Part shown: one piece after another, positions 20,203-53,162 of the stretch
How the letters are laid out: each line of letters begins with the position of its first letter
How positions within the stretch are numbered: the first letter of the stretch is position 1
Assembly (NCBI GenBank): GCA_963575745.1
Contig: CAUYUJ010000307.1
Location: 62,001-115,628 of the forward strand
Direction of reading: 5' to 3'
Origin: Prorocentrum cordatum
Taxonomy: Eukaryota
DNA: 53,628 nucleotides
Notes under the pieces: generated by a model
The model's database searches: none
Told to the model about the DNA's origin: nothing
The model's input: only the letters and a program-made list of their open reading frames with translations
Translations under genes and position numbers: made by a program

Positions 20203-20770
20203 TGTCCAGAACCCCTCCCAGGAGGTGGTCGAGCTGAATTCGCCGAGTCATTCGGAGGTGACCGCGTGCACAGACAAAGGGGCACCTCAGGTGTGCATCC
20301 AATTCCGGCAGCGAAAAGGATGCGCGAACCCTGGCCCGGCGAGCCGTGCGCCCATGAGCGCGGGATCGGCTAGCCAGGTGGGGGAAGTCGCGCGGGTGTG
20401 CGCGCAGGTGTGGCGAAATTGCGTTTGCGCGCTGCAGGGGCGCAGGCTTTGCGGCGCGTGCGCGATGCGCCGGCGCCTGCGCCAGGGAGTGCGCGTGTTC
20501 CCGGCGCTCACCTACGCGGAGGCGCTGTCGTGCGTCAAAATATCGGCGGCGCGACTGGATCCCCCTCTGGCGTTCGAGAAGGAACTCGTTGCTTCAGGCG
20601 GGGCGGGGCCAGCCAGGCCCATGCGCGCGGGCCGCCGTTCGCGCTGCCTGCGGCTGGTGTGCCGCGCCAGGCACTAGAAGAGGGCGGCGTGCTGGCATTA
20701 TTCCAGACGGGAGGGTGGCGCGCGACGGCGGCTTTCGGGTTCTCCAACGACGTCGATGCGATGGCGGCGC
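20203..20770 (+). pseudogene. Decayed C-terminal half of a DIRS-type tyrosine recombinase
   Basis: Across two frames: SHSEV...VCIQFRQRKG...RNCVC...LCGAC...VFP, then GTRCFRRGGA (HxxR with H mutated to R) and GGVLALFQTGGWRATAAFGF. Confidence 0.65.
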
Positions 20771-22507: not shown

Positions 22508-22544
<37 letters not shown>

Positions 22545-23066: not shown

Positions 23067-23145
<79 letters not shown>

Positions 23146-24430: not shown

Positions 24431-24503
<73 letters not shown>

Positions 24504-25297
24504 CTGATGCTGATGATGATGATGATGCTGATGCTGATGGTGATGGTGATGATGATGATGATGTTGATGATGCTGCTGATGATGACGATCTTGATGCTGA
24601 TGATGCTGCTGATGATGATGATTAGGATGATGCTGATGATACTGATGATGCTGATGATGACGATGATGATGATGCTGATGACGATGATGGTGTTGCTGAT
24701 GATGATGCTGATGCTGATGCTGTACCTGCTGCTGATGATGCTGATGCCGATGATGATGCTGATGATGATGCTGATGGTGATGATGCTTAGGATGTTGCTG
24801 ATGATGATGCTGACGATTATGATGATGATGTCGCTGATGATGCTGATGATGGTTGGGGTGGTGGTGATGCTGCTGCTGATGATGATGAAGGCGATGATGT
24901 TGGTGAAGATGACGATGCTGATGGTGATGGTGATGCTGATGATGACGATGATGATGATGATGATGCTGCTGCGGATGCTGATGATGATGCTGATGATGCT
25001 GATGATGACGCTGATGATGATGATGCTGATGACAATGATGATGACGACGATGGCGATGACGATGATGATGACGATGATGATGCTGATGATGATGATGCTG
25101 ATAATGCTGACGACGATCATGATGATGATGATGTTGTTGATGTGATGATGAGGATGATGTTGATGATGGTGATGTTGACGATGATGATGGTGATGCTGAT
25201 GATGCAGATTATGATGATGCTGATGATGATGACGATGCTGATGATGATGATGATGATGATAATGCTGATGATGATGCTGATGCTGATGCTGATGAAC

Positions 25298-25342
<45 letters not shown>

Positions 25343-25351
25343 ATGATGATG

Positions 25352-25394
<43 letters not shown>
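21272..25394. repeat. ~4.1 kb compound (GAT/GCT)n and (GAG)n microsatellite
   Basis: Directly visible; the poly-D/M/E/R ORFs in the track are by-products. Confidence 0.98.
22020..22192. other. ~170-bp unique island in the GAT tract, flanked by GATACT; possible solo remnant of a YR element
   Basis: GATGA|TACTCAG...CTAGATAC|TGATGAT. These ends resemble those of the 25395-31843 element (GATGA|TACTAG...CAGATGC|TGA). Confidence 0.4.
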
Positions 25395-25395
<1 letters not shown>

Positions 25396-25452
25396 ACTAG
25401 TGCGCGCACGTCTTGCGTCAGCCGATGTTGTTCTCCGCAGCGTGTGTTGCTC
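25395..25452 (+). repeat. Split direct repeat A1 (58 bp)
   Basis: TACTAGTGCGCGCACGTCTTGCGTCAGCCGAT...GTGTTGCTC; 2 mismatches to 31545-31602. Confidence 0.97.
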
Positions 25453-25469
25453 AAAGGGAGGGCTCCCTG

Positions 25470-25881
25470 GATGCATATGCAGGTGGACCCTCTGCTGCTA
25501 TACACACTCACACGTGACTCTCTGTCGGGAGTGCACCATCTCTTTTCGCAGCCTCAGGTTGAGGAGGCGTGTCCACCGTGTGTCTGCCAGTGCGTCGCGT
25601 CAGGCGAGGCGAGTGGAGAGTGCGCCGCACTCGAGCGCCTGGTCTCCCAGCAGCTGCAAGGTCCAACGACCAGCACAGCGCGCTACGAGTTCAATTTCGT
25701 GCTGCACGCCGGCTTCATCGCAGTGGCCTTCGTAGTGGGAGCTCTCCTAGGTCGTGGCTGCTCGTTTCGGAGTTCCAAGCGAGTGGTCAGCCTGACCGAT
25801 GGCGCAGCTAGTGGCGGCAGCAGGGCAGGCAGGAGCGGTGGGGGCGGCGGCGGTGTCATCGTCGTTGGCCCCGGGGCGTAA
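25470..25881 (+). CDS. Small 5' ORF with CPPCVCQC motif and one hydrophobic, membrane-spanning-like segment
   Basis: EEACPPCVCQC...FVLHAGFIAVAFVVGALLG; overlaps the start of the gag-like ORF in another frame. Confidence 0.5.
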
Positions 25882-26993
25882 GGTGCTTGTGCGTTACGAC
25901 GATGACCTCTGGCACGTTCGCATCCTGCTCGCGCGTGTTGAGGACACACGGTGGATCATATATACACCTGATAGCGACCTGTATGAGGAGGACTACGGCC
26001 CGAACAACGGCGACATCACAGGTGTGCGGGCTTTCAAGGCGGACGGCAGCATCCCGGCGAGCCTGCAGGGTGCCAACATTTATAATTTCAGAGCCGGTGC
26101 CGAACCTGATCAGGCCGCGCTGCGTGGGCTGATGGAGGAGGCGCAGGATCGGGTGGCACTGGCCGGCCGCGGAGTGGCTCCGCCAGGGGCCGAGCCTGAG
26201 GTCTGGCTGTTCGCGGAGTCGAATGCGATGTTCTCGGTCGGAGACGAGTGCCCAGGGCAGCCAGAGGTGTTTGTGGAGAAGCGCGGCCTCGCTCGCGCTG
26301 GGCTGGATGTGCTCATGGTCGAGAAGGTGGCGAGGAATCAGGTTGAGCAGTGGAAGACGGCCCACGCCGCCTCCAGCGATGCGCGGGTGCTGCCGGTGGG
26401 GGCGGCTGCGCAGCTGGGCGGACGTGGCCGAGAGCGTGAATGAGAGTGCGATCGACCACTGGCCCGTGAAGGGGCCAAGGACAGCGCAGTGGGTGGCCCG
26501 CTTCATGTCCCGGCGCAACACAGGGCCAGAGGGCCACCACCGCTGGTGGAGGTCGACTGCTCGACTCAACGCCTCAGACTGGGGTGTGGCCGAGCACGGC
26601 CAGCTGTGCTCGTACCTGGAGGCGGCGGGGAGCGTGGGCCAGCTCGACCTGTCGAATTTGGTGGTGATGGAGAAGATCGCACGCCGACTCCAGACAATAG
26701 AGTACCAGTACGCGGAGAAGGTTCGGGAGGGCGAGCGCGGCGGCACCGCCGGCGCGTCTTCCGCCGTCGCCGGCTCGGCCGTCATCACGAATGACGAGAT
26801 GGACCTGTTCGAGGGACGGGGGCATGTCAATCCTACGGTGTGCTGCGCCCCGACGCTCATTGAGCACGTGAGTAAGGAGTTAGAGAAGGAATCGCAGATC
26901 CAGAAGCAAGCCAGAAAAGCACGAGAAGAAAGAGCCCTCCTTCGTCAGCCCCCAGGCGGAGGTGGTCGTGGCCGTGGGGGCGGCGGGCAATGA
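25799..26993 (+). pseudogene. gag-like ORF1 of YR retrotransposon (frameshift near 26400)
   Basis: VLVRYDDDLWHVRILL...YTPDSDLYEEDY; then WPVKGPRTAQW...GQLDLSNL...EKIARRLQTIE...APTLIEHVSKELEKESQIQKQARKAREER; lies upstream of RT. Confidence 0.75.
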
Positions 26994-29185
26994 GCACACG
27001 CGTGGCCGTCGGAGACGGCCTCCTCCGACGGCCAGCAGCGCAGGCAGGCCATTCATCGCTCGCAGGAGCGACCAATTCGAGTGCAAAGTCGAGTCGGCTA
27101 CTTTCGTCGACTGAGCCTCGGCCATTTTTAAAGAATCGGGTAAAAGCATCGGGGTCAGACCCCTCGATCTGTGCGACTAGGCGGCCTCCAGGGCTGAGCA
27201 GTCTCCCAGTCCCTTCTGAGCAGTGGTTGAATAGGCTTAGTCGCAGCGCCGCCTCCGTCCTTACGAAAATGTACCTGGGTGGTGCTCCGTGCTGTCCTGC
27301 TGGTGCTGCTTCGTCTCTGGGCGAGGGCAGCATGGGGCACCTCCGGGGACGTTGCAGTAGGATGGGTACCCCCCCCCGCTGAGGTTCAGCCGGCCGAGGC
27401 TTTTTCGAGCATCAGCGGGGGGTGTGACTACTCTGGCGAGAGTTCGCCAGCAGTTCCCCTGGACGAGTCTCTGCTGTCGCTTAGGCCAGCAGGGACGGCC
27501 CCAACTGATAGATGTCATCTCTTGGGCCCCAAAGGTCGCGAGGAAGTCCAGGAGTGGATGAGCGAGCATGTGCTACCAAACTCGGTGGGCATGCGCAGTT
27601 TTGAGGTGAGCAAGATGAAGATTTATCATGACCCTGGTCTGCGCAAGTCAATGCGCAGATATGCACGCGTGCTTCAGATGCTGCATGACAGGAACATGGT
27701 TGAGTTTGTGTGCGAGGAAGGTGATGCTTGCGTAGGACTTTTTACTGTGCGCAAGAAAAGCGGTGCCCAGCGCCTGATTGCCGACTGTCGGCAGTCCAAT
27801 TGCTTTTTCACGAGTAGTGATCACGTCGAGCTGCCCACGTCGGGCGCCCTGTCCAGGTTACGGCTCGAGGCCGGAGAGCAGCTGTATGTAGGTCAGTACG
27901 ACTAAAAGGATGCTTTCTTTCAGTTTGGAACACCCCCCGAGTTGCGGAGATTTTTCCATTTGCCCCCCATCAAGGCAAAGTGGATGAAGCAGCTGCTCCC
28001 CGACATTCTGAGCACTGGAGGGATTGTGCGACCTCGGCTTACTGTTATGCCAATGGGCTGGGTCCACGCGCTGTACTGGTGCCAGACAATGCACGAAAGG
28101 ATTTTGAGCCAAGCGTTTCCAGGCTCTCATCTTCTACAGGATCATCGGCCAGTTGGTGATCTGAAAAATGGGTGCGTGTCTGTATATGTGGACAACGTGG
28201 GCGTCTTCTCGAGCTCCCCTGAGGTTTGTCGTGATCTCACTCAGCGATCCCTGGAGGCTGTTCGAGGTGCCGGTTTAGAGGCTCGCGAGGTCGATGTTGT
28301 CGGAGTTGGGGGAGATCTGCTGGGGCTCAGTGTCTCGGGAGACGGTCGGATCTTGCCACGGCATGAACGGAGGTGGAAGGTGTGGATGGCTTTGGAGTTC
28401 CTCTTGAGGCGCCGTCGTTGCTCTGGTGGGACGCTCCGGAAGATCCTGGGACACATCGCCCATCAGGCAATGCTCCGCCGGGAGTTGCTGTCATGTTTTC
28501 GAGCCGTGTATATATATTCATAGAGAAGAACCCCGATAGCCCCTCCAAGTTGTGGCCCGCGGTGCTGAGAGATCTCCGGTGGGCTCAGGCGTTGCTTCCG
28601 CTGCTTGAGTGCGACCTTGCCAAGCCGTGGGGACCGAGGGCCTATACGTGTGATGCGTCACCGCGGGGTCTTGGGATATGTGCGGCACGGCCGCTTACTG
28701 AGGTGTTGGACGAGGCCAGCAGGTATTCAGATCGGTGGCATTTCTTGGGCGGAGGTCGTGCTAATCCTCGGGCTGTACTGGAAGAAGGGGATGATGATGG
28801 CGCTGGGGCACCTGAAGGTTCCTTGCGAGGAGTGCCTCCTGTCCCTGGGCTTCCACACTAGCTTGCTGCATGCTAAGTGGCATGCGGTCAGTAGTAAGGC
28901 TTGGGAGCGTAGCGAACACATCACCTGTCTTGAAGGTCGAGCTCTGGTGGGAGTCCTCAGGAGGGTTGCAAAAACTCGCGAGTACGTCCAGAAGCGGGTC
29001 CTCATTCTCACGGACTCCATGGGTGCGTTGCTTTCGGCTCAAAAGGGGAGATCGAGCGCGCCTGGGCAGTGTCGCGTCGCCCGCAAGCTGGCCTCCCTCC
29101 TTCTGCTGTGGGACATCCAGCTCTGTCTGCGATGGGTGCCCAGCGAGAGGAACGTGGCTGACGGGCCCTCCCGCCGAGGGTTGCG
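26990..29185 (+). pseudogene. Reverse transcriptase-RNase H (DIRS type)
   Basis: GLFTVRKKSGAQRLIADCRQSN, QYD*KDAFFQ (TAA 27903-27905), MPMGWVHA, YVDN; RNase H DAS, HITCLEGRA, LTDS, WVPSERNVADGPSR; frameshifts at ~27375, ~28515 and ~28850. Confidence 0.93.
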
Positions 29186-29187
29186 GC

Positions 29188-30526
29188 ATGCTGGTGCGGC
29201 GACCGCTGGAGGCAAGTTCCGCCGTGGCTGGGGCAGCGCGCGAGGAGAGAGTGCTCTCTCGGAGTGGCGACGCCGGGCGCAGTCTGGCCCGTCAGGCGCC
29301 GGCCCTGCCAGAGCTGCCGCCGGGTGCGGTTCGCCCCCGCCCCCCAGCGGGAGGGTTGACCTTGGCCGCGCCGGCGACGGCGCCAGCCGAAGATCCTCGC
29401 CTGCCGCGACGGCGCCTGGTCTTTGCCACAGCACCGGAGCATGTGCGTCGGCGAGTTCGGCGACGGCAGGATGCTCACGGCGCGGTGCGGGCCTTGCCGG
29501 GCCGGACGGTGCTGGAGACGGTGGCGGTGCGAGCGCCGACGAGGCGATCGTACCTCCGCCGGCTGGCGGGGCTGGCGCGGCGCTCGGGGATGGTGATCGC
29601 GCAGAACGTGACGGGCGTGGAGCTGGACCGGGCGCAGGATCGCATTATTCGCTTCCTCGGCCAGATGAGCGCGGTGAGCCTGGACGCGGCGGTGGCGGAG
29701 CACCTCAACGAGGAGTTCTTCGAGGGCACGACGGGGGGCGAGGGCGGACGGTTGCTGGCGGCGCTGTCCTGGGCCTTCGCTTCCGTGGGCAAGCAGGTGT
29801 GCAACCTCCCTCGGGCGCGGACATGTTCCTCGGCGTTGCGCCGACTTGCTCCGGGCGAGTCGAGGCTGCCAGTGCCCGAGAGCCTCCTCTTTGTGGTGGC
29901 GAACGAGCTAATCGCACAGGGGAAGTTGCAGCAAGGTGTAGCGGTCTTGGCGGCACATCACTGCTACCTTCGCCCCGGCGAGCTGTCCCGCACCACGTGG
30001 GGGGTGGTCCGCCCGCCAGTCAGTGCGAGTGGGCCCGGGGCCGCAGTCACCGTCGCGCCACATCCTTTCGAGTTCGGCGTGAGCTCCAAGGTGGGGGAGT
30101 TCGACGAGACAGTGAGGGTGGACTGGCCACCTCTTGCTACGGCGCTCCTTCGGCTTCGACGGATCCGCCCAGCAAACGAGCGCCTGGCAGGGATCGGCCC
30201 TCGGCGAGAGCGTGGCGCAGATCATCCGCGGGTTCGGCCTCGAGGAGGCGATCGGCGAGTTCATGATGCATCGTCTCCGTCACTCAGGGCCAAGCGCCGA
30301 TTTCCTGGCAGGTCGCAGGACGATCGCGGAGATCAAGCATCGCGGCAGGTGGTCCTCAGACAGCAGTGTGAGAAGATATCAAAAGGGAGGCCGTATCAAC
30401 GAGCTCCTAAGTCGGTGTTCTACTCAGGTGAAAGAATTCGCCGCCAGGTGTTTGGAGGCTGTGCCGAGGATCCTGCAGAGTGCGGCCGCGCCGCTGCAGG
30501 CTCCAGCCGGCCTACGCGTACGTTGA
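29188..30526 (+). pseudogene. Tyrosine recombinase (frameshift near 30185)
   Basis: Catalytic set YLRPGE (R at 29971), SKVGEFD, HRLRHSG, RGRW, SVRRY. Confidence 0.93.
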
Positions 30527-31325
30527 TCGCGCCCTTCTTTTTAGAGATCTTTGCAGGCACGGCTCGCGTGTCCAGGGAGATGTCTCGGCTTGGCTTCCTG
30601 GCGATCGCTATCGATGCTCGGTTCGACGTGAGGCATGATATGTGTAAGAGATCCTTGATGAGGATTATTAGAGGCTGGATCAAGTCAGGTTTCGTCATAG
30701 GCATTCACTTCGGCACGCCGTGTATTTCATGGTCTCGTGCTCGCACCAGGCCCAATGGCCCTCAGCCACTTAGAAGCGGTGAACACATTCTTGGGCTGCC
30801 TGTTTTGCGAAACGAGGGAGAGCGCTGGAAGATTGACATGGGAAACACTACCATGAAACAAACGCTGTGAGCATCGCGTCAGTGGCGTCTCTGCACATGG
30901 TCCCGTTCTGTATCGAGAACCCTTACTTATCCTTTATTTGGGACGCGCCTCAGATGCTGCACTTACGACGACGTCGAACTACACGTGAAGTCCGAACTGA
31001 TTTCTGTCAATGGGGAGTCCCTTGGATGAAGCCAACTAGGTTAGTCTGTAGTTATCTGCCTGTTGAATCCTTGGGCCGTAGGTGTAAACTCTGCAGGGGA
31101 AGGTGTTCCAGAACTAACAAACCACATGTTTCCCTAACGGGCAAGAGCAGTAATGGAATATTTAAAACCCGCGTGGCCGAGGAATATCCAAAGTGCTTTT
31201 CCCGGGCCCTAGCCAATGCTTTCGCTAACGGTTTAAAGAACCTGACGGCCACCTCTTTTTTTCTGCAGTTTTGTAGCGAGTGTGTATCCAGGGAGAAGTC
31301 CCACCACCACCCTTCTCCTCCATGA
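30524..31325 (+). pseudogene. Divergent C5 cytosine methyltransferase-like domain (frameshift near 30868)
   Basis: FLEIFAGTA (I), AID (II), HD (III), GTPCISWS (IV), IENP (VI), DFCQWGVPWMKPT (VIII-like), TRVAEEYPKCFSRALA (X-like). Confidence 0.8.
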
Positions 31326-31344
31326 TAGAACGGTTTGCACGTGT

Positions 31345-31544
31345 GGAGCGGAGCTGCGCTTCAGAATTCTGTGATGTTGTCGAGCAGCACCCTGAAAAGG
31401 TGCTGGTGCACAGCGCTTGAGATCGGTACAACTGTCTGCGCTGCCCAAGATGTAAAAAGGTCTGGTTGCCGTGCTCGTGCTCCCTCGGGTCTCGGCGGCT
31501 CTCCCAAAGCACGCAGGTGTCTCACACGCCCCGAAGGCAGATGC
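31345..31544 (+). repeat. Split direct repeat B1 (200 bp)
   Basis: GGAGCGGAGCTGCGCTTCAGAATTC...GCAGATGC; near-identical to 31644-31843. Confidence 0.97.
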
Positions 31545-31602
31545 TACTAGTGCGCGCACGTCTTGCGTCAGCCGATCTTGCTCTCCGCAGCGTGTGTTGC
31601 TC
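31545..31602 (+). repeat. Split direct repeat A2
   Basis: Copy of 25395-25452, directly abutting B1. Confidence 0.97.
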
Positions 31603-31643
31603 CCGCCCACCTCCCTTGTCACACTTTTACTTCTTTACCTTGC

Positions 31644-31843
31644 GGAGCGGAGCTGCGCTTCAGAATTCTGTGATGTTGTCGAGCAGCACCCTGAAAAGGT
31701 GCTGCTGCACAGCGCTTGAGATCGGTACAACTGTCTGCGCTGCCCAAGATGTAAAAAGGTCTAGCTGCCGTGCTCGTGCTCCCTCGGGTCTCGGCGGCTC
31801 TTCCAAAGCAGGCAGGTGTCTCACACGCCCCGAATGCAGATGC
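31644..31843 (+). repeat. Split direct repeat B2 (element 3' end)
   Basis: Copy of B1, followed by TGAGTATGATGATGAT. Confidence 0.97.
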
Positions 31844-32922
<1,079 letters not shown>

Positions 32923-36425: not shown

Positions 36426-39400
36426 CGGACTTGCTGGGGGCGGGATTCGTGCCGAGGTCAGGCGTCTACGCGAGCTTGCTGGAGGCGCCCGGCGGAAGGT
36501 TCTTCCCGCTGACCCTGCAGAGGCGCATCTGGTACTTGCAGCTGCAGCGCGCGGTCACGGCCAGCGACTTCGCGATCGCGACCGCGCCGCTCAGGCAGCC
36601 AGCTGCAGCTCAACGTGTACCAGTCTATCGAGAAGTTCGGGAACCCGATGGAGCTGAAGGTGGAGTCCAGATAGCAGCTGGAGGAGCAGCGGCGAGGTCA
36701 TCGGCGCCAGCCGCAGCGGCGGCGGCCCCAGCGCAGGCGAGGCTAGTCAGCGACCGCCAGGAGATTGTCGTCAAGCGGAAGAACGCGATCGAGTTGTGCG
36801 ACAGTCCTGATGGCCGAGCTGCGCAAGCATGGGGGGTGCCAGTGATGCCTCCGTTCGCCGAGAGACAGATGCACCGTCTCACTCGTTGGCCTTGCCGATC
36901 GCGGCGCAAGGCGCGGCGCGCCCGGCCAGGGGGGGGGCGTGGGGAAGTCAGCCGCCGCAGGATAGACCAAGGGCGCGATGCGCCGCAGGTCTTGATTGAC
37001 TACTCGCCCCCAGGCATGCGCAACGCTAATGACGTGATGGCGCTGCCGGCGTGCTTGGACTTCGAGTCAACAGCGATCGAGAGCGCTAACGTGATGGAGA
37101 CGGGCGCGGTCGATTGCGGCATCGAGGCCCTGGTGCAGGCCCTCCAGTTCTGGGGCCGCAAGCGCGGTGCGTTGCCCAGTGGCCAGGAGAAAGCGATCGC
37201 GGCGCTGGGCAGAGCTGTCGCCGCGGAGCGCGGCGAGGAGACTGTCGTGCAGGTCGGTCCAAGGCTGGGTTCCAAGTCGAATGGGGCCGATCGAGGCAGC
37301 GGGGGGCAGGGTTCAGCAGTTCGCCCGCACCTTGGTGTACGCCGTCTATGCGCACTACAGAGTCGAGCTGAAGTCCGGCGACCCTATTTGCACCTGCTTG
37401 GGGTTTACCGTGAGAGAAGATGGCTCAACGCCGCGTCGACGGCTCAAGGGGGGGGGGGCTACCGCGGCCAGATCGCTGAGTTCGCAGGGGCCGCGGCGCA
37501 CGAGCTGCCCGCGGGAGCTGCAGGCTAGATGGAGGCCTGGCGGGGCAAACTCATGCATCTGGCTAGGCAGGGCCGAAGTCAACGACGAGCGCGCGATCGG
37601 CGCGCCCAGGGGCAGGGTCTTCGCGCGTTCGATCGCGAGGAGGCCCGGCGAGAAGAGATGGAACAAGCGCCTCTTCGGCCAGATCGTGCGCGCCCCTTTC
37701 GGTCCGCAGGCGGCCCTTCTGGTGGCTGGGCCCGTCTCGCGGCCGAGGTGCCTGACCGAGGCGATCCTCGGCCGCCTGGGGGGGCGCCCAGTTGCGCCGC
37801 CTGCGACGGGACGGGCCAGCAGCGCGCGGCCGAGTACAGAGCTCGCATGGATGCGCTGCTGGACGCAGAGGACACTGCGAAGGGCCTGGCTGCCCAGGCT
37901 GGGGCTCGAGGCGACGCGCCCCCCCCCGGCGAGGGCGGCAACCGGGAAGAGGGGGCTGGCCGAGGCCGCGCAGCCAGCGGCCAGCGGCGGCCGGGCGCCC
38001 CCGGGCCCAGCAGCTGCCGCGGCGCCAGCAGCCGCGCCGACGCAGCCAGCTCACGGAGGCGGGGCAGACGCGGCCATGCCTGATGCAGGGGGCAGCGCCG
38101 AGAGGATGGGCCAGGAGCCCATCGAGATCTCAGAGGGGACGAAGAGACAGACCCCAGGGAAGGAGGAGATCCCTGATAGCAAGAAGGCGCGCACTATCGG
38201 AGGTTTGCCCGGGTGCGCACGCCGCCCACGGTCTGCGCTGCGGGCCCGGGCGAGTGCGCATCCGAGCCCGTCGAAGAGAAGGTCCTGACCAACAGCAAGG
38301 GGGCGTTGTCGGGGCAATTGTTGCCTGCAGACAAAGTGAAGGAATGGCGTGCTCGGGGGCGAGGAAAGATGAAGAAACACAACGTGCTCGAGCGAGTCTA
38401 CGCCCACGATGCGCGAGGTAAACGGCCCACGGGGCTCCAGGAGTGGAAGACGGGGACAGGCGCCGTGATGCGCAGGTTCGTGGCCATGCAGGTTGCGCGC
38501 CAGGTGCGCGACGATACGTTCGCAGGCGCCCCGCCCCCGCAAGTTCCTGAGGCTCGCGCTCGCGATGGTGGCTGGGCTCGAGCGCAAACGGGAGGTCTAC
38601 CTGATTGGCCCCTGGGACATCAGCAATGCCTTCCTTCGCGCCACAATGGACGAGGACGCCTGCGCGATGCCGCCTGTCGGCGAGGACGAGCCGAACGTAG
38701 CGTGGCAGCTGGCGAAGGCGATGCGTGGCACAAGGCGCGCGAGCAAGCTGTTCTAGCGCATGATCATAGGGGCGCTGATCGCCAGGATCCCTCAGGATGC
38801 AGGTGACGGTCATGGTGTTCGTCCACGTCGAGAAGAGCATCTACGCGGCGGTGCGTTGCGACGACTTCATGGCGGTGTCCACCTACGTCGACCTGCAGTG
38901 GCTCAACGAGGTCCTGGAGGAGAAGTTCGAGGTGAAGAGGTCTCCCTTCATCGGGCCCTTGGTGGCTGGGGGTGAGGCGAAGTCTGGCAAGTTCCTGAAG
39001 CGAGCTGTGAAATGGACGGAGGAAGGCTTCCACTGGGAGAGCGACATCGAGCGCGCAGTCACTCTGGCGGAGGCGCATCGGAAGCTGGCGGCATCAAGAG
39101 ATCTCGCCATCATCGAAGAACGTAGGGAAGGAAGTGCCGACGGCGCTTGACATCCTAAGCGATGACGAGAAGAAAGCGCTTCAGTCTGTGACGCCGACGG
39201 TGCTCTATCTGGCCGCGAACGGGTCGGACATCCAGTTCGCGACGAGCTGGGTCGTGCGAGGCATGCAGGCGCCGATTGAGATCCACGACCTGGGGCTCAA
39301 GCGGCTGGCCACGCACCTGGCGACGCATCCGTGGATGACCTGGCACTTTGGGCCCCGGCAGATGCCGAGGGAGATCACAATCGTGACCGACTCTCGTTGG

Positions 39401-39875
39401 GCTGAAAGCGAAGTGGCAAGGCGAAGCCGCGGTGGTGCGTGGGCAGGCGTGCATCGGCAGCTGGGCAGGGCAGCGGGCCTCGAGGGCGCTGAGCAGTGGA
39501 GGGGCCGAGTACAGTAAGACGACGAACGGAGCGGCCAGGGGCATCCTCACGAAGAACCTATTCAAAGTGATGATGGTTGAGATGATGGCGGCGGTGGCTG
39601 GCGACAGCGCGGCGGCGATCGGGATTTGCTCGAGGCTCGGCGTCGGTCGCATCAGGCACTTGGATGCGAAGTACCTTCGGCTGCAAGAGAAGGTGGCGAG
39701 CAGAGAGGTGCGAATCAAGAATGTCCCGGCGAACGAGAAAGATGCGGATATCATGGCGAAGGCCCTGGGCCCGACCCGGCACCACGAGCTGGTGAAGGGG
39801 CCGCGTATGACCCTGCAGTCTGGCGAGGGGCTGATCAGGGCAGGGCAGCCAGTCATCGAGACCGCGATGTTATGA
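36426..39875 (+). mobile_element. Decayed Ty1/Copia pol (integrase-RT-RNase H); LTRs not identified
   Basis: Eroded HHCC finger (HRLTRWPCRSRRKAR), GQEKAI, SKSNGA/IEAA integrase core, IWLGR; RT DISNAFLRA, LAKAMRGTRRA, VRCDDF; RNase H TDSRWA...RRSRGG, ALSSGGAEY, IRHLDAKYLRLQE, ADIMAKAL; many frameshifts. Confidence 0.9.
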
Positions 39876-42241: not shown

Positions 42242-42328
42242 CCGACGCGCGGGTGTTCCAGGGGGCCGCGGGGCGGCCATAACCACAGCCGTGCTAGTCC
42301 GCGGACTAGGTAGCGCGCCTGTGGTGCC

Positions 42329-45300
42329 ATGGCTGTGGGCTTCCTGGGGGCGCACCTGATGATCTTGGTTACGGGCGGCGCTCTTACGGTCCAAGGGGCA
42401 CTTGGCTGGCTGCCATTCGGGCGCGGGGGACATGAGGTCCCAGCGCCGACGCCGCCAGCCCTGCCCGGGCCGACAGCGCCGCCGGCAGGCGGTGGGGGGC
42501 GAGGCAAGGGGCGAGGACCGCCCGCCAAGCCCGCGCCTGCAGGGGGAAAGGGGCGAGGGCCGCGGGCCAAGCCCCCGGGGACGCCGGGCGTCCCACCGCC
42601 GCCGCGGTCAGGGTCGACTACAACGACCACGACCGCGGGCATCGGGCGCGTAGGCGAGGGCGAGCCCACAGGCAGCCCAGCTACGCCGGCATACGGAGGT
42701 AACAACGAGCCCACGGGCGCGCCTGGGCAGCCGTCCGCCCCGGGAAACCGGACGGGCGATGGTGAGCCTGACCTGCCGCGTGGGCCGGACGGGTATTGGG
42801 GGTGGAGTGGTTGGGTCCCGCACCTGCCCCATTGGTGGGCTGGCCGGAGCGAACCCCCACCGCCGCCGCCGCCACCTACACCGCCCCCGGAGGCAGGGCC
42901 GGGTCCCGGTTGGGGCTTCGCAGCCTGGGTCTTCGAGGTCGTGGGCTATGGAGCGTGGGTAAGCTCCCCCGACCATCCGGGCACGATCCGCACGAGTGGC
43001 GGATGGTTTGGATCCGCTGTCGACCGCCTGGGCGTCAAGATGCTTGGGTATTGGTGGGAGACCGTGGTCTTATGCTTTGCCCTAGGCATCTTCACGTTCG
43101 TGTTGGGTGCCCTGGCCTTCATCGTCAACACCGCAGCCCAGCCTATGCTGTGGGCTGCCGGGGGACTCCGCTGGGCGTGGTACCAGATTACCCGGTGCTG
43201 CCAGCGACGCGGAGGGGATGGGCCTGGCGCCCATCTTCCCCCACCCCCTCCGACCCCCTTGCTGGTGCGCTGGCGCGGGCCGGGCTTGGGCGGCGTGGTG
43301 GAGACAGAGTTCTACACAAAGGGGGTCCGCGGCCGAGGGACCAATCGGGCGTACAACCACGTGCTGCTGCGTAAGCACGGGCAGGTGGCCCGCATCAGCT
43401 GCAACTTCGCGGACCGGTACCGATTGGACCGCCACGGGCTCAACATCAAGATCGGGCAGGTCCTGGGGTGCACCAGTCGCAAGTGGCGGCTGAACCTCGA
43501 GGAGACAGGGAATGTGCATCTATGTCGTGCTGTCGAGTGCGCCTCCTGTCCAGTGGCGCATCCCATGCACGTCGACCAGTACGCGGCCATTGACCACACA
43601 CAGATTGTGGACTTGGCTGAGCACGGAAGGGCCACGGCCTGCCGAGCAGTCGGCGTGGGACTCCGGAAGGTATTCGGGGTCGTCAAGTGGCTGCTTTGCT
43701 CACCCTGGTCGGTACTCGGATGGCTGTGCCGGGGCCGGCCGGAGCCCCGCTACATCACCGACGCCGCGGGCTATCGCCGCCTGGACATCGACTCGGAGAG
43801 CGAGGTGGAGGCGGAGGAGCGCCCCTGCCAAGCCGCACAAGTTGGGGTGCAGCTCGCGGGTGGCGCACGCCCCCTCCAGCCGGAGGGGTGCGGCGACCGA
43901 GGGATGCAGGAGGCCACTGTCCTGCTACAGGAGGACGCGGAGGTGTCGGACGTTCCTCGGCCTGGGCATTGTCTCAATGCACAGGTGCACCTCTGCGCCC
44001 ACCATGCGCAGAAGTATCGGTCTACCCTGATCGGCCGCAAGTGCAGCCTCCCCACTTGTCTCCGCATGGCGAAGGGTAGCTGCGGGGGGGCCCCGATGTG
44101 CGGGGAACATCTCCGACGGGACGAGGGTCACACCGTGCGCGTCGAGGCGACGGTCCAACCTGGGATCCTCGGGGGCCTGCGCCGCCGCATGCGGGCGCGG
44201 GCTCCAAGCCCCGCCAGGGTGCGCGATTGGACCGCGCACGCGGCCGATGGGGTTGGCATTGCGACCGAGCCGGTCTACCCCCCGCCTCTACCTCCCCCCG
44301 CTGCACCGCCACCGCCCGCCGTGGCCCCATCTGTCGATGTGGGGCCCACGGGGGCGCAGGCCCTAACCTCGGGGCCGCAGCCGCGTCGCACACGCTCCGC
44401 GGAAGCTAGGGCCAGCGGACGCTCACGGTCTGCCGACCGCGGGGCCCCGGGCGATCGGATCGCCCACCACGGGTGGCTTCAGGAGCCCCTACTCGTGAAG
44501 GTCTGCCCGATACTCCCGGGCGACCCTCGGGGAGCCGAGGAGGCGTACGGCGCGCCCCCGGCGAGTCCTTGGTTTATTCTATTGGGGAATGCGAGGGGCT
44601 CGACGTACGGGGCACTGGCGGGGACGCCAGACTTATCATCGGGACTAGCCTCGAGGGCGTCAGGGTGGAGGTCCCAGCCAGCGAGGTCGCACGGCACCCC
44701 CCCCCGCTGGAGGACGGGCGCTACCCGATAGATTGGATCAATCGGCTGCTGTACGAGGCCCCCCAAGGGGCTCGGGAAGTGGGGTTGCGTGTCATCGCCC
44801 ACCACATCCCGCAGGATCTGCTGGCGATGTTACGCCAGGAGCAGTGGGGCGGTGTGGACGTGGAAAGCGCGAGCGGCTGGAGGCGGCGCTACCTGACGAA
44901 CACGGAGCGCCAGCAGCTGCAGCACGACCCTGTGCGCACACTCGGCCACCATCGGCGGGGTGGCGCGCAGGGGGCGCCGCCTGCGCCCGGGATGGAGGGC
45001 TTGCCCCGTCCCGCCCCCGTGGCGGCACTGTCGCGCTTAGCGGCGGCCGCCGCCGGCGTGAGCGAGGACGCCGAGGAGCCCGACCCGCTCGAAATGTTCA
45101 TGGACTCCTTGCGAGCCGAGGATCTCAAAGGACGGGGGGGCCAAGCGGCGGCTCTCAGTGCATTAGGTATGGCCGCGGACCTGCTCGGGGTTCCGCTTGA
45201 TCAGGCGGAGCGGCAGCTGCGGCGGAGGGTCGCACAGGTGGCAGCGGCGGGCCCACTGGGGTCCGACCTAGAGCGCGCCCTCGCGGATCTGGAGGATGCG

Positions 45301-48300
45301 CAGCTGGAAGCGCGCGCGCGGGAGCGTGCTGCGGCCGCCGACAAGGTTCCCCTGCAGGGGGGCCTCTCACGTGAGGGGTCGCGGAGTCGCTCGGCGCGGG
45401 GACGGGATCCCAGCCCGAAGCAGGGACCCCGACGCGAGCTCTTCGGTGCCATGCCCCCCATCCAACCCACGGGCCCACGACGGGGCTTGCTGGGTGATCG
45501 GGACCTGCTGGCACGCGATGGACGCGGGGGGGCCGCTCGTGGGGCCAATCCGCTCCTCGACGGGGCCTCGGTCCTTGGCCACCTCACTGGCCAGACGCCC
45601 CACGGGGGCGGCCTGGGGGGGGAGCGAGCTGGGGGTCCAGACGACGCCGGGGCGGCGGGCGCCCTGGGCGGGCTTACAGTCGAGGCCGAAGCCCAGATTA
45701 TCGAGCGCCTGGATCGCCAGAACCGCCTCACTGAACGCCACGTCCTCGCCGCCGAGCGGCAGGCGCGGGCCACCGAGGGCGACAAGAAGGCCCGGTGCAC
45801 CAGGGCAGGGATCGGTCGGGACGAGGAACTCGATCTTTACATAGCCCGGGGATGCAACACCTTCGTGGTTGAGGCCAGCGAGGGTATCACGGGGAAGGAC
45901 TTGTTCGACTCACTCAAGCGCATGTGTGCGCACTCCAAGAGCACGCTCAAGACGATCGGGTTTCCCTGCCTGGTTACCACCCGTGTGGCACACGGCTACG
46001 CGGCGCTCGCCTTCGGGACGGGCCCTCACGACCTGGCGGTGGACGACTGCGTCCCCGCGCGTGACGAGGACTTCGATGGCTATCGGCTCCCTGTGGACGA
46101 CAAGCTGGAGCCCCGCCAACGGCCCGCCACCCACATGGCAACCTGGTTCAAGAGGGCCCGGTGCGAGATCCAGATGTTCGAGTCCATCATAGGGGTCGCA
46201 CACGGGGCGGAGCGTCGGCGGTCGTTGGGGTTCTTGGAGGCGGCCTACGAGAGGGACCCATCGGAGTTCCCAGACCATTGGGTCAAGGATCTGTGGGAAG
46301 AGCTCCGAAGCACCTGGGTCGAGGAATTGCGGGAGCTGAGGCGCCGACTCTGTCGAGAGCTCGACACCGAGAACCCGAGGAGGGAGGACATCAAGTATAT
46401 CCTACTCAAGCCGGAGAACGGCTACGATTTGCCCCGAACGTTCGACCTCGGGGACCCGAACGCCTACTACCAGCAGGTGGTCGTGCCCCGGCGCAAGGCC
46501 GCACTCACGCGCCTTCTCAATGGGCAGCTGAACGCCCACCTCACGAAGCGACCGCCCAAAGCGGGAGGGAGCGAGGAAATGGGCGATCCCCGGCCCACGG
46601 CGCAAGGGGATGACAGGCCCAAGGCGGGGGCTGGGCCCCAGCCGAAGGCGGGGCCCAAGGCGGGCACCGGGGCCCCAGCGGGGACAGCCCCCAAGAGGGC
46701 GTACCCAGCGGGCAAGGAACTAACACGCCCGGAGCGGACGCGATCCGTGGCGCATGCGCCCCGCAATAAATACAACGTCCCTATCTGCTGGGGGGCCACC
46801 ACGCACATGGGCTGCTCGCGGAAGGCTTGCGATTGCCCTAACTCCCATGACCCCATCAAGTCAACGCGCGGATTGGACTACTCGGTAGTCATGCAGCTCA
46901 CGAGGCGCGGGGGGCTCCTTGGGACGCCCCGGATCGATCCCAAGCAGGTGGATGGGATGATTGCGCAGCTGCGCTCGCAAGCCAAGGCAGCCGAGGCCGA
47001 GACGGTTGGCGAGGACACTTCCCCACCTGCTCCCCCTGACTCCCAGAAGGAAAAGGGCCGGGGCCGCGGCGGCGGCTCGCGAGCATCGGGCGACCCGGGC
47101 CCGGGGCAGGCCCCGGACGACTACACCGCGCTCCAGCTTACCGCGATGGAATCCGACCTCCGGGAAGCGGTTAAGGGCCCCGACTTCGGATGGCTCGAAG
47201 ACCACGACCACCCGCGCGCGGCGGCCACTTGGGACGCCCAGCCCGCGGGTGATGGGCCAGAGCTTCGCCTCAAACTCATGCAGGAGCTCGAAGCCGAGGG
47301 CATCTTCGCACCTCTGAAGGGAGCCAGCGAGTACTTGCAGAGCCACGTGCGCGGGCGCGTCTTGGGGGCGCGCCTGCGCGGGGAGCGGCTTACTCTGGAG
47401 CGAGCCCTCGAGGAAGCCGTGGACCGAGGCCATCGGGGTCTCAGCAGCGAGGCGGCCGACCTGCATGAGGCGCTTAGCTGCGCCGCAGGATATGTCACCG
47501 AGGGCGGGGCCGAGGTTGGCCCGGTTGCGTGGGACCCCGGCGGGCTGATAGGCCGCGGGTCATATACCTTCTGGGACGGGGACACCCGCATCCAGTGGGA
47601 CTTCATCGACTATCGGGACCGCCTCGGCCCTACAGGGGAGATGGGCCAGGCGATGGGCCTGGAGGTGGGCGACGCCGAGGAGCGGCAGTGCCTGCTACTG
47701 CACGTAGCTGCGGGGGTGCTCCTGCTACGCGCGGGCGAGGGCACAGGTGAGCCCAGCCCGGACGCGGTGCAGCAGTTGGCTGCGACGTATCGCCATGCAC
47801 TATGGGAGGAGGCCCACGAGGTCCTGCGTGCCCTGGGCGACTCCCCGCCGTGGATCACGGCCCTGGAGGCCGATGTCCGCTCCTACGTCCACGATGCGGT
47901 GCACCCGCACCACGACAAGGACTATCGCTGCCTGGCAGCATGCCCTGTCGCCGACCTCGACGCCGTCACACTCCAGGTGCACCGTGTCAACGGCAGTGGG
48001 CGCCTATGCGTGGACCACCTAATGGGAACGGGCGTCGGCGCGGAGGATCACGTAATTCCGCTCCTGATCTGGCGCGGCCATATGCGCGCCTTGCGCCCAC
48101 GCTCCCACGCGGAGGCGGCGGCCCTATGCCAGCGCTGGGGGCACGCAGGACGCCTGTCCCGCGAGATCGTAAGTGTCGGCTGGCGCGAGATGCTCGATGA
48201 AGGCCCGGACGTTGAACCCACCGTCCCGGGCAAGAGCGCACCCTGCACCCACTGCAAGGCAGCGGAAGGTCGGGCGGGCCGCGCAGTGGGACGCGCGCCA

Positions 48301-48396
48301 GCCTCGTTCGGGGAACATCCAGCCGACGTCCAGGCACGCCTCCTGAGGCGAACGCGATGCCAATTCGACACGACCCCGCGTTCGCGTACGGTTTGA
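42329..48396 (+). CDS. ORF1/gag-like polyprotein region (ORFs 42329-44731 and 44473-48396, probably joined by a frameshift near 44620)
   Basis: Hydrophobic N-terminus and membrane-like segment; Cys/His clusters; CCCH-like ICWGATTHMGCSRKACDCPNSH; C-terminal QCLLLH...RGHM protease-like motifs. Confidence 0.75.
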
Positions 48397-49180
48397 TCGC
48401 CCAGGAGGTGTACGCCGGTTCGGGAAATTGGTCGGCCGCGCTTCGCGCCGAGGGCATCCGGGTGCTGGAACCGATCGAATATTACGACGACCCCCTCCGA
48501 GAATCCGGTCCACGGCCGGATCATGATACCCTCGACCCAGCGGTCCGCGCGCGCCTACAGGAGGCCGCACGGACCCCCATGGGCCCCGACGTGGCCAACG
48601 TTTGGTGCTGGGGTACCCCGTGTGGCTCGTACACCGACCTCGGGCTCATGGCCCGGCCGGGCGGGACCCCGCAGGGCACCCGAACGTGGGAGCACCCCGA
48701 GGGGGATGGCTCCAAAGAGTTCGAGCGCGTGGGTAACAGCCACACACAGTTCACGTGCGACACCTGCCGCATCCTACACGACACCGGCAAGGAGTTTCTC
48801 ATCGAGTCCTCCTGCCCCTCGGGCCGCTACCCCAAGATTTGGGACCAGGCCCCGATGCACGAGCTGCGTCGAGCGACGGGGGCCATGATCGTCCCGATCC
48901 ACATGTGCGCCTGGGGTAAGGCCCCGTCCGACTCGCCAGAGAGCCGCTATCGCAAGGGCAGCTGGTGGCTCGTCAGCCCCCGGCTGTATCTGCACGCTCT
49001 GTTGTTGGCGCGACGTTGCCCCCGTGACCACCACCGCGTCGAGCTGAAGGATCACGTGCCGGGCTCGGGCATTAAGCGCACCAAGGAGGCGCAGGTTTGG
49101 GCCCCCCGCCTTTGCGCCGCGTGGGCAAAGGTGTTGAAAGGGGCCTATCACCGCTGGTCGGTGAGCCAACTGCGTCGGCA
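48390..49180 (+). CDS. Divergent C5 cytosine methyltransferase-like domain upstream of RT
   Basis: QEVYAGSGNWSAAL (I), PIE, HDTLD, WGTPCGSYT (IV), FLIESS (VI), HMCAWG...YRKGSW, RTKEAQVWAPRLCAAWA. Same motif pattern as 30524-31325. Confidence 0.78.
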
Positions 49181-49528
49181 GTTGGCGCCTATATGGGAGG
49201 ATGGCCCGGGGGCGCCCCCCAAATTCGCCCGGGCGGAGGCGCCCGGGCGCCTGCAGGGCGTCGACTTCACTGGAATCGAGCGCCTGCAGGCCTCAGGGGA
49301 CGGCTCAAAATGCGGTAGGCTTAGCCCAGCCATGCACCGAGCATTGGCGGGGCTTCCTAAGCCCCCCTTGGGCAAGGCACAGGGGGAGGTGAGTGCGGGC
49401 AAGACTCGACCCCCTTGCGAGGATCCGGCCAGAGATATCGCGGAGGACCTCGACGGGTGCAGCCCGGCGGAGCTGGCCACGGTCTACCTGACCTTCTGCA
49501 CGGAGCACCCTGAGTATGACCCCGAAGC

Positions 49529-51600
<2,072 letters not shown>

Positions 51601-51779
51601 GTACGCCAGCGGATGGCGGAGGCCGGATGGACCGAGCTGTCGCCGGCAGCTCCGTGGGGCGAACTGGTGGAGGAGGCCGCCCAGCGCGAGCTGCGGATGC
51701 CAGGAGACGACGGGCCCTGGCGCGCGGCTGCACTCCAAGTCATAGGAGCCCGGGAGGCCCTACCACGCTACGCCCCTCT

Positions 51780-52700: not shown

Positions 52701-53162
52701 CGCCTGCGGAGGCAGGCCGTAGAGGCAGCGAGCGCAAGCGAGGCACCCGGGGCGCGCGCGGGCGTCGGGCCCGATCACGACCGACTCGCTAATGACGAGA
52801 TGGTTAAGCTGTGGCTAAAGGCCTGGCTTCAGGCCCCCGATCGCCCTAGCGGGCCATTCGAGGCTGCGCTGGAGGCGGGGAAGACGACGGACGACGCCGC
52901 TCGGTTGGCGGACCAGCTCGACCCCCCTGCTACCGCGCGGTCCACCGCAGCAGGGATGGACGGGGCAGGCGGGGAGCGGGTCGGGGCGGTGACCTTCGCT
53001 GTTCCGGAAGGCGCGGGCATGCCCAGGCCAAGCGCCGTGGACGGCGTGGGCGGCGCGGCCCCACCCCCGCGCAAGGCCCGTCGGCGTACCCGCAGCGCCC
53101 CTGCTCCCGCGCTGGCGAAGCCCGCCGCCTGGCGGTGCGCCGGCGGGGGCGCCCCGAAAGGG

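What the first reader, a model, noticed from the sequence alone, without database searches (positions are those of the whole stretch)
36860..39770. Reverse CpG decay: dead elements accumulate TG/CA-to-CG and other AT-to-GC changes
Seen, judged against remembered consensus motifs: the Copia HHCC finger reads H-R-L-T-R-W-P-C-R-S-R-R-K-A-R (CGT 36884, TGC 36893, CGG 36902, CGC 36905, where H, Y, W, C are expected). Also AFLR (CGC 38637, H expected), VRCDD (CGT 38854, H), YLRLQE (CGG 39678, W), SSGGAEY (E), DIMAK (T), and GTRCFRRG in the YR relic (CGT 20587, H). This is opposite to 5mC deamination or RIP. Inference: a repeat-associated T-to-C process, perhaps linked to the 5-hydroxymethyluracil known in dinoflagellate DNA, or strong GC-biased conversion.
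Basis: partly seen in the sequence, partly recalled or inferred. Interest (0 to 1): 0.7.

Follow-up and report, generated by a model that had tools for sequence, protein, structure and literature searches.

The report
GC-ward decay of dead copia retrotransposon
A broken jumping gene in a GC-rich dinoflagellate genome has lost its key amino acids mainly through A:T-to-G:C changes; this looks like drift toward the host's GC-rich make-up and not a special mechanism that creates CpG sites.

Summary
The stretch is a dead Ty1/copia pol relic at 36428-39812 on the + strand. It has 11 frameshifts and two in-frame stops. Its nearest relatives are five Prorocentrum cordatum gene-model proteins.

I polarised changes by codon parsimony against these copies. 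On the relic's lineage I infer 146 nucleotide changes: 80 A:T>G:C and 43 G:C>A:T. All six lineages pooled give 216 against 116, which implies an equilibrium GC of 0.72 (CI 0.68-0.77).

- **Real:** the AT-to-GC excess.
- **Not supported:** the 'reverse CpG decay' part. CpG-creating transitions are not enriched over opportunity (30 of 178 vs 42 of 332, p 0.23). Existing CpGs are not hypermutable.
- **Shape of the bias:** strand-symmetric, unclustered, not TpA-specific, and present in transversions too.
- **Unexpected context:** transitions that create GpC (AC/GT>GC) run about four times faster (39 of 136 vs 33 of 374).

Best reading: neutral decay under a GC-favouring substitution bias, from biased gene conversion or mutation bias. 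Whether the bias is specific to repeats could not be tested, because no DNA of other copies or of non-repeat neutral sequence could be obtained. The implied GC exceeds the published genome mean (59.7%), so a special process is not excluded.

The parts
36428..39812 (+). Decayed Ty1/copia pol relic (end of protease region, integrase, reverse transcriptase, RNase H). 1012 codons align to the family profile, with 11 frameshifts and two in-frame stops.
   Evidence: Frameshift-aware alignment to five P. cordatum family proteins; tblastn HSPs in three frames. Frameshifts at 37283, 37452, 37547, 37779, 37919, 38208, 38534, 38781, 38786, 39094 and 39440.
36872..36916 (+). Remnant of the N-terminal integrase zinc finger (superfamily pattern H..TH.PYRSWC..C). 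The relic reads H-R-L-T-R-W-P-C-R-S-R-R-K-A-R.
   Evidence: Sequence; motif in 65 of 122 superfamily proteins. The family gene models skip this stretch, so when it decayed cannot be placed on the family tree.
36974..37900 (+). Integrase core region, read in two frames.
   Evidence: tblastn to P0001, P0002, P0003, P0006; alignment.
38550..38747 (+). Reverse transcriptase segment with the only Pfam hit (RVT_2); holds AFLR (CGC 38637).
   Evidence: PF07727, E 6.4e-05, 23.1 bits, below the 31.6-bit cut-off.
38845..38868 (+). RT active-site block, VRCDD in place of VHGDD (CGT 38854).
   Evidence: 5 of 5 family proteins read VHGDD; P0004 and P0005 also read HGDD.
39441..39812 (+). RNase H C-terminal region with SSGGAEY, YLRLQE (CGG 39678) and DIMAK.
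20581..20604 (+).
   Evidence: Motif located. The one relative, P0127, is 62% identical over 77 residues and reads GTHCFRRG. No Pfam family for either, so the tyrosine-recombinase label is unverified.

Best explanation
The stretch is a long-dead copy of a Ty1/copia retrotransposon in a Prorocentrum cordatum-like genome. Since it lost function it has drifted neutrally under a substitution bias that favours G:C. Per available site, A:T>G:C transitions are about 2.5-3 times as frequent as G:C>A:T transitions, and there is no extra loss at CpG. Histidine (CAY), tryptophan (TGG), cysteine (TGY) and tyrosine (TAY) codons are each one GC-ward transition from arginine CGN, or from cysteine TGY for tyrosine. 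Catalytic residues therefore turn conspicuously into arginine, which gives an impression of CpG gain.

Shown: the direction, size, strand symmetry, lack of clustering and context of the bias, in this copy and in five other copies of the family.

Inferred: the cause. I take GC-biased gene conversion or a general GC-ward mutation bias as the most likely cause. Either is acting in the dinoflagellate with the highest GC reported, so the bias would be a property of the genome and not of repeats.
For: - Dead copy: 11 frameshifts and 2 in-frame stops in 1012 aligned codons.
- Relic lineage: 146 inferred changes, W>S 80, S>W 43; A>G 48 of 295 opportunities, T>C 24 of 216, G>A 22 of 409, C>T 10 of 285; implied GC 0.74, CI 0.66-0.81.
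- Same bias in other copies: P0007 61 to 25 (0.77); four younger copies pooled 75 to 48 (0.68). Old and young copies do not differ (p 0.24).
- Pooled: 216 to 116, implied GC 0.72, CI 0.675-0.768.
- Strand-symmetric: A>G 111 of 1511 against T>C 76 of 1140, p 0.54.
- Transversions are also GC-biased, ratio 1.76, p 0.037. A single deaminase or T-mispairing chemistry would not produce this.
- No strand-coordinated clustering: 28 runs against 33 +/- 3.7 expected, p 0.11. Changes are spread along the element.
- CpG observed/expected is about 1 across the window: 0.96 after masking, 1.06 in the relic.
- The relic's codon-position GC is 0.66/0.53/0.815, mean 0.67. That is close to the published P. cordatum coding mean of 65.9% (passage of PMC10666404). 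The AT-rich first and second positions are exactly where a GC-ward flux is expected and where amino acids change.
Against: - The implied equilibrium GC (0.72) is above the published genome mean 0.597 (p 5e-07), the window's 0.64 (p 7e-04) and the relic's own 0.668 (p 0.02). The copies are under more GC-ward pressure than present composition requires.
- There is a strong context effect: AC/GT>GC 39 of 136 against 33 of 374, p 8e-08; it is still 16 of 66 against 33 of 374, p 9e-04, without Thr>Ala and Val>Ala. There is also a Tyr>His hot class, 12 of 43. Plain biased conversion predicts neither.
- The finger has its five invariant positions (H, Y, W, C, C) all changed within 15 codons, each along a GC-ward route. 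That is denser than the relic's average of 72 of 511 per W>S transition opportunity.
- Only amino-acid-changing sites could be scored. Part of each branch may date from when the lineage was still active and under selection.
- No non-repeat control could be obtained. The two tandem arrays gave only 11 W>S and 16 S>W distinct variants.
Confidence: 0.6

Rival explanations
1. A host process that targets repeats or foreign DNA edits A:T to G:C (a 'reverse RIP'). This would resemble the TpA-directed hypermutation of integrated viral DNA reported in Bigelowiella natans.
For: - The implied GC of 0.72 exceeds the genome and window GC.
- The finger is very densely hit.
- Tyr>His, which is T>C at TpA, is the fastest class at 12 of 43.
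- W>R at the same column arose in both the relic and P0001.
- Such a process exists in another alga (abstract of preprint 10.64898/2026.01.13.699255).
Against: - In the relic, TpA sites are not hotter: 3 of 25 against 69 of 486.
- Tyr>Cys, the other-strand TpA change, is only 2 of 43.
- There is no clustering or strand coordination.
- Transversions are GC-biased too.
- Young and old copies show the same ratio. Editing bursts would hit only some copies.
Confidence: 0.1
2. 5-hydroxymethyluracil, which replaces much of the thymine in dinoflagellates and is enriched on repeats, mispairs or is mis-repaired and so causes T>C changes, mostly in repeats.
For: - 5hmU is enriched on transposons in Amphidinium carterae (abstract and passages of PMC11572971) and in Breviolum minutum (passages of PMC11071213).
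- 62.8% of T is replaced in Prorocentrum micans (background passage of PMC11071213).
- The bias seen here is strand-symmetric, as a double-strand DNA lesion would give.
Against: - T>C rates by 3' neighbour, both strands combined by hand, are TA 3 of 25, TC 30 of 225, TG 30 of 178, TT 9 of 83. There is no excess at the TA/TC context reported for Crypthecodinium.
- Other 5hmU-rich dinoflagellates have 44-51% GC (passages of PMC11114475), so 5hmU alone does not make a genome GC-rich.
- GC-biased transversions are not explained.
- In the passages I read, neither paper reports a mutagenic effect.
- In A. carterae, high-5hmU repeats are on the whole less diverged, not more (passage of PMC11572971).
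Confidence: 0.12
3. There is no neutral bias. The excess comes from changes made while the lineages were still active and under selection, together with the way sites were chosen.
For: - Only amino-acid-changing sites are scored.
- Branches include an active phase of unknown length.
- Ala, Gly, Arg and Ser gains match a GC-rich host's protein make-up.
Against: - The most exchangeable replacements are not the most frequent: Ile/Met>Val 7 of 215 and Lys>Arg plus Asn>Ser 7 of 241, against Thr>Ala 16 of 127 and Asp/Glu>Gly 29 of 394.
- Invariant catalytic residues are hit.
- Counts are normalised by opportunity.
- 75 of 84 high-confidence replacements are single-step, so misalignment is minor.
Confidence: 0.1
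4. The changes arose at the RNA or cDNA stage, through ADAR-like A-to-I editing or reverse-transcriptase errors, before this copy was inserted.
For: In the relic alone A>G is the commonest class (48 of 295 against T>C 24 of 216). Purine transitions exceed pyrimidine transitions in the high-confidence set (45 of 482 against 16 of 328, p 0.02).
Against: - The asymmetry is not significant in the full relic set (p 0.12 and 0.06). It is absent in P0007 (28 of 223 against 19 of 161) and in the pooled data (p 0.54).
- A>G is disfavoured before G, 9 of 116. From memory, ADARs prefer a 3' G.
Confidence: 0.05

Closest known systems
Neutral relaxation of pseudogenes and dead transposon copies toward a GC-rich equilibrium, including GC-biased gene conversion
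   Same: W>S exceeds S>W in both transitions and transversions. The bias is strand-symmetric and unclustered, and it is seen in every copy of the family.
   Different: The implied equilibrium (0.72) lies above the present genome and window GC. There is a strong neighbour effect favouring GpC creation. Neither is part of the textbook picture. gBGC in dinoflagellates is only mentioned as a possibility in the passages I saw (PMC11114475).
TpA-directed T/A>C/G hypermutation of integrated viral DNA in Bigelowiella natans (preprint 10.64898/2026.01.13.699255; abstract and outline read)
   Same: The direction (A:T>G:C) is opposite to the usual GC>AT bias, and it acts on invading or repeated DNA.
   Different: Here the bias is not restricted to TpA (3 of 25 against 69 of 486), shows no burst-like clustering, and includes transversions.
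RIP in fungi and methyl-CpG deamination decay of repeats (recalled, no call)
   Same: Both are ways in which dead repeats acquire a skewed spectrum.
   Different: The direction is opposite. C>T and G>A are the minority, and CpG sites are not hotter (7 of 203 against 25 of 491). CpG observed/expected is about 1.
5hmU marking of transposons in dinoflagellates (PMC11572971, PMC11071213; passages read)
   Same: It is a repeat-enriched thymine modification in the same group of organisms.
   Different: It is described as a silencing mark. No mutational consequence appears in the passages read, and no context match was found here.

Membership tests
Ty1/copia LTR retrotransposon | RVT_2-type reverse transcriptase | tested here: met
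   The relic's own hit is weak (PF07727, E 6.4e-05, 23.1 bits, below the 31.6 cut-off). It aligns over 1012 codons to proteins that carry PF07727.
Ty1/copia LTR retrotransposon | Integrase placed before reverse transcriptase | tested here: met
   The finger and integrase core lie at 36.87-37.9 kb, RT at 38.5-38.9 kb and RNase H at 39.1-39.8 kb, colinear with the family proteins.
Ty1/copia LTR retrotransposon | Flanking long terminal repeats | tested here: not met
   No direct repeat pair flanks 36.4-39.9 kb at a minimum of 60 nt. The copy may be truncated, and gag and protease are largely missing upstream.
Methyl-CpG deamination / RIP-type decay | C>T and G>A dominate and concentrate at CpG (or CpA) | tested here: not met
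   S>W transitions are 32 of 146 changes. The rate at CpG is 7 of 203 against 25 of 491 elsewhere.
   30 of 178 against 42 of 332, p 0.23. Across six lineages: 10 of 170 against 38 of 678, p 0.85, and 5 of 111 against 21 of 164.
Bigelowiella-type TpA hypermutation | Transitions confined to TpA | tested here: not met
   3 of 25 TpA opportunities against 69 of 486 others in the relic. Tyr>His at 12 of 43 is high, but Tyr>Cys is 2 of 43.
Bigelowiella-type TpA hypermutation | Rate elevated locally in foreign DNA relative to host DNA | not testable with these tools
   No genome is held, no runs were listed, and no related DNA loci were found.
GC-biased gene conversion | W>S favoured in transitions and in transversions alike | tested here: met
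   Transition ratio 2.54; transversion ratio 1.76, p 0.037.
GC-biased gene conversion | Bias scales with recombination; W>S alleles segregate at higher frequency | not testable with these tools
   This needs population or recombination data for the organism.
RNA-level A-to-I editing before insertion | A>G excess on the sense strand only | tested here: not met
   Pooled A>G 111 of 1511 against T>C 76 of 1140, p 0.54. In the relic alone, 48 of 295 against 24 of 216, p 0.12.

The most novel reading that the evidence does not exclude
A double-strand, context-dependent A:T>G:C process acts more strongly on repeated DNA than on unique DNA. It is fastest where it creates GpC (AC/GT>GC) and at the TpA of tyrosine codons. 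It could be linked to the 5hmU that marks dinoflagellate transposons or to a dedicated editing or repair enzyme. It pushes dead elements toward about 72% GC and would help explain why Prorocentrum cordatum has the highest GC of any sequenced dinoflagellate.
Probability: 0.15. Interest if true: 0.8.

Novelty: new member of a known kind. Interest (0 to 1): 0.33.

Why it matters
If the ordinary reading holds, the finding gives a first rough estimate of the substitution equilibrium in this genome: about 0.72 GC, with no CpG decay. The cause of P. cordatum's record GC content is left open in the genome paper, where the discussion passage of PMC10666404 only suggests selection. The estimate also warns that arginine-for-histidine or tryptophan 'signatures' in GC-rich genomes come from codon geometry.

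If the bias instead proves stronger in repeats than in unique DNA, it would be a second case, after Bigelowiella, of A:T>G:C mutation directed at invading DNA. It could also tie the enigmatic base 5hmU to genome defence by mutation.

Tried and rejected
- Whole genome: none is held for this window.
- Public sequencing runs holding the stretch: none was listed, so no reads or contigs could be laid and read laying was not used.
- Metagenome scan with the family alignment: 258 pattern matches, none a relative. No DNA of other copies was therefore obtained, and synonymous sites, LTRs and non-coding parts could not be scored.
- Other copy in the window: none. Only simple and tandem repeats were found.
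- Second element for replication (RVT_1 at 27906-28520): only 3 relatives at 34-38% identity, too distant to polarise.
- Tandem arrays as a non-transposon control: 6 W>S to 6 S>W and 5 to 10 distinct variants, too few to use.
- Pfam on the YR-like relic and on its one relative: no family.
- Pfam on 75 long ORFs of the window: no conserved host gene or pseudogene that could serve as a comparator.
- Burst-like clustering: not found.
- Literature: searches for dinoflagellate with GC-biased gene conversion, 5hmU with dinoflagellate and transposable, and 5hmU with mutagenic, transition and mispair. Nothing I opened reports an AT-to-GC decay spectrum of dinoflagellate transposons. For one search I saw only the listing, which held no such title. 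The supplements of these papers were not opened.
Full report
**What is there**

The window is 64% GC, and CpG is at about its expected frequency. Observed/expected CpG is 0.89 raw and 0.96 after masking simple repeats; it is 1.05-1.06 inside the flagged stretch.

The flagged stretch gives one weak Pfam hit: RVT_2, E 6.4e-05, below the curated cut-off. A protein search with its RNase H end found five relatives. Three of them are Prorocentrum cordatum gene-model proteins at 58-67% identity. A second search added two more members of the same family and more than a hundred distant copia polyproteins.

A frameshift-aware alignment of the window DNA to the profile of the five family proteins covers 36428-39812 on the + strand. 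It spans 1012 codons, with 11 frameshifts and two in-frame stops. The order is integrase, then reverse transcriptase, then RNase H, which is the copia order. No LTR pair was found. This is a dead and probably truncated copia pol relic.

**The observation**

| Motif | Relatives | Relic |
|---|---|---|
| VHGDD | H in 5 of 5 family proteins | R (CGT 38854) |
| SSGEAEY | E in 4 of 4 | G |
| DLMTK | T in 3 of 3 | A |
| YLWLQE | W in 2 of 3; P0001 has R | R (CGG 39678) |
| AFFH | H in 4 of 5; P0007 has R | R (CGC 38637) |

- The AFFH position is N or S in the outgroups P0004 and P0005. It is therefore neither catalytic nor clearly a change private to this copy.
- The finger pattern H..TH.PYRSWC..C occurs in 65 of the 122 fetched proteins. 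The second H is 65 of 65; the W, C, C and Y/F columns were fixed by my search pattern. The relic reads R, C, R, R, R at the H, Y, W, C, C positions.
- The family's gene models skip this stretch, so the time of its decay cannot be placed on the tree.
- For the separate relic at 20.58 kb, the only relative found reads GTHCFRRG where the window has GTRCFRRG. No Pfam family supports the tyrosine-recombinase label.

**An unselected spectrum**

The family tree is simple. Four copies (P0001, P0002, P0003, P0006) are 81-85% identical to each other. P0007 and the relic are each about 61% identical to everything else, and they share 29 derived residues, against 3 or fewer for any other pair.

I took the residue shared by the four-copy group and P0007 as ancestral for the relic. 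I then inferred the smallest codon change to the relic's actual codon.

- High-confidence set: 84 replacements, 75 of them single-step, giving 83 nucleotide changes: W>S 45, S>W 25.
- Adding columns where P0007 is missing: 146 changes, W>S 80, S>W 43.
- Per amino-acid-changing opportunity:

| Change | Observed / opportunities |
|---|---|
| A>G | 48 / 295 |
| T>C | 24 / 216 |
| G>A | 22 / 409 |
| C>T | 10 / 285 |

- The implied equilibrium GC is 0.74 (CI 0.66-0.81).
- Other lineages, with the relic's codon as a stand-in for the ancestral codon: P0007 gives 61 to 25 (0.77), and the four younger copies pooled give 75 to 48 (0.68).
- All six lineages: 216 to 116, implied GC 0.72 (CI 0.675-0.768).

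The AT-to-GC excess is real and family-wide.

**What kind of bias it is**

- **Not CpG-directed.** In the relic, CpG-creating transitions are 30 of 178 opportunities against 42 of 332 for the rest (p 0.23). Across six lineages His/Gln>Arg is 10 of 170 against 38 of 678 for the other second-position A>G classes (p 0.85). Trp/Cys>Arg is 5 of 111 against 21 of 164 for Tyr>His plus Phe>Leu, which is lower.
- **CpGs are not fragile.** S>W transitions are 7 of 203 at CpG against 25 of 491 elsewhere.
- **Why it looked like CpG gain.** Their codons sit one GC-ward transition from CGN arginine.
- **Strand-symmetric.** Pooled A>G is 111 of 1511 and T>C is 76 of 1140 (p 0.54). G>A against C>T gives p 0.32. 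The relic alone leans toward A>G, but not significantly (p 0.12).
- **Unclustered.** There are 28 runs of same-type changes against 33 +/- 3.7 expected (p 0.11). Changes occur in all parts of the element.
- **Not TpA-specific in the relic.** 3 of 25 against 69 of 486.
- **Transversions are biased too.** The ratio is 1.76 (p 0.037), against 2.54 for transitions.
- **Age makes no difference.** Old and young copies do not differ (p 0.24).

Together these features fit a general GC-favouring force on double-stranded DNA. They do not fit an RNA editor, a burst-like repeat-killing system, or a single T-to-C chemistry.

**Points that do not fit neatly**

- The implied equilibrium (0.72) is above the published P. 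cordatum genome mean of 59.7% (passages of PMC10666404 and PMC11453091; p 5e-07). It is also above the window's 0.64 (p 7e-04) and the relic's own 0.668 (p 0.02).
- There is a strong neighbour effect. A>G before C and T>C after G, which are the two strands of AC/GT>GC, occur at 39 of 136 opportunities against 33 of 374 (p 8e-08). The effect remains at 16 of 66 against 33 of 374 (p 9e-04) without Thr>Ala and Val>Ala.
- The same ordering appears in the other lineages: Thr>Ala 16 of 127, Val>Ala 18 of 195, against Ile/Met>Val 7 of 215 and Ile/Met>Thr 8 of 215. Selection for conservative replacements would predict the opposite order.
- The relic also has the lowest AC/GT (0.78) and the highest GpC (1.18) of the stretches compared in the window.
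- Tyr>His is the fastest class, 12 of 43. The tyrosine columns are few, and events shared within the young group may be counted twice.
- The finger lost its five invariant residues within 15 codons, each along a GC-ward route. That is much denser than the relic's average of 72 of 511 per W>S transition opportunity. The finger may simply have died earlier.

**Limits**

- Only amino-acid-changing sites could be scored.
- Each branch includes an unknown stretch of evolution as an active element.
- The ancestral codons for the five protein-only lineages are borrowed from the relic.
- No DNA of other copies and no non-repeat neutral comparator could be obtained.
- The central question, whether the bias is stronger in repeats than elsewhere, therefore stays open.

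**Literature**

- 5hmU is enriched on transposons in A. carterae and B. minutum. It replaces 62.8% of T in P. micans (passages of PMC11572971 and PMC11071213).
- In A. carterae, high-5hmU repeats are mostly less diverged (passage of PMC11572971).
- The 5hmU context reported for C. cohnii is TA/TC, and no motif was seen in B. minutum. T>C shows no TA/TC excess here.
- A TpA-restricted A:T>G:C hypermutation of integrated viral DNA is reported for Bigelowiella natans (abstract of preprint 10.64898/2026.01.13.699255). The pattern here differs from it.
- Nothing I opened from the dinoflagellate searches reports such a decay spectrum for dinoflagellate transposons; for I saw only the listing. Supplements were not opened.

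**Earlier notes on this genome**

Two earlier notes reached opposite verdicts on the same idea. My data agree with the one that reads it as GC-ward drift (e1-7626779). They do not reproduce, for this copia family, the sense-strand A>G excess that the other note claims for LINEs (e1-7627740).

**Verdict**

A repeat-directed or 5hmU-linked process is kept as the bold alternative, at about 0.15 taken together as the novel case.

Noticed in passing
window 36428-39812 and family proteins P0001-P0007: A:T>G:C transitions are about four times faster where they create GpC (AC>GC, GT>GC): 39 of 136 against 33 of 374. The effect appears on both strands and in the other family copies. No explanation found.
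   Followed up: partly
family alignment, tyrosine columns: Tyr>His (T>C at TpA) is the fastest replacement class, 12 of 43 lineage-columns, while Tyr>Cys is 2 of 43. There are few columns, and shared events may be double-counted.
   Followed up: partly
window 39678 and P0001: The same Trp>Arg change in YLWLQE is present in the relic and in P0001, which belongs to the other branch of the family. This is either a parallel change or a conversion.
   Followed up: no
window 5180-5797 +: This ORF has a weak C-5 cytosine DNA methylase match (PF00145, E 5.1e-04, 20 bits, just under the 22-bit cut-off).
   Followed up: no
window 25390-31844: A second retroelement has an RVT_1 segment at 27906-28520 and long ORFs up to 684 aa. 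It is bracketed by a 63-nt direct repeat (25390 and 31540, 95%) and has a 204-nt repeat pair at 31342 and 31641 (97%). Its nearest proteins are from Amphidinium carterae, at 36-38% identity.
   Followed up: partly
window 42314-53627 +: A run of very long ORFs (805, 1328, 442, 421 and 441 aa) in 68% GC DNA has no Pfam family. TpA is much less depleted here (0.73) than elsewhere in the window.
   Followed up: no
window 50456-50724: A poly-C tract of about 269 nt.
   Followed up: no
window 729-1473; 21321-25395; 32007-32921: A 22-nt satellite of about 34 units, and kilobase-long triplet arrays (ATG/GAT, GAG, GGA) with strong G-over-C skew.
   Followed up: no
window 36650-36975 vs P0002, P0006: The family's gene-model proteins lack the roughly 110 codons that hold the finger. 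Either those copies have lost it or the gene models spliced it out.
   Followed up: no
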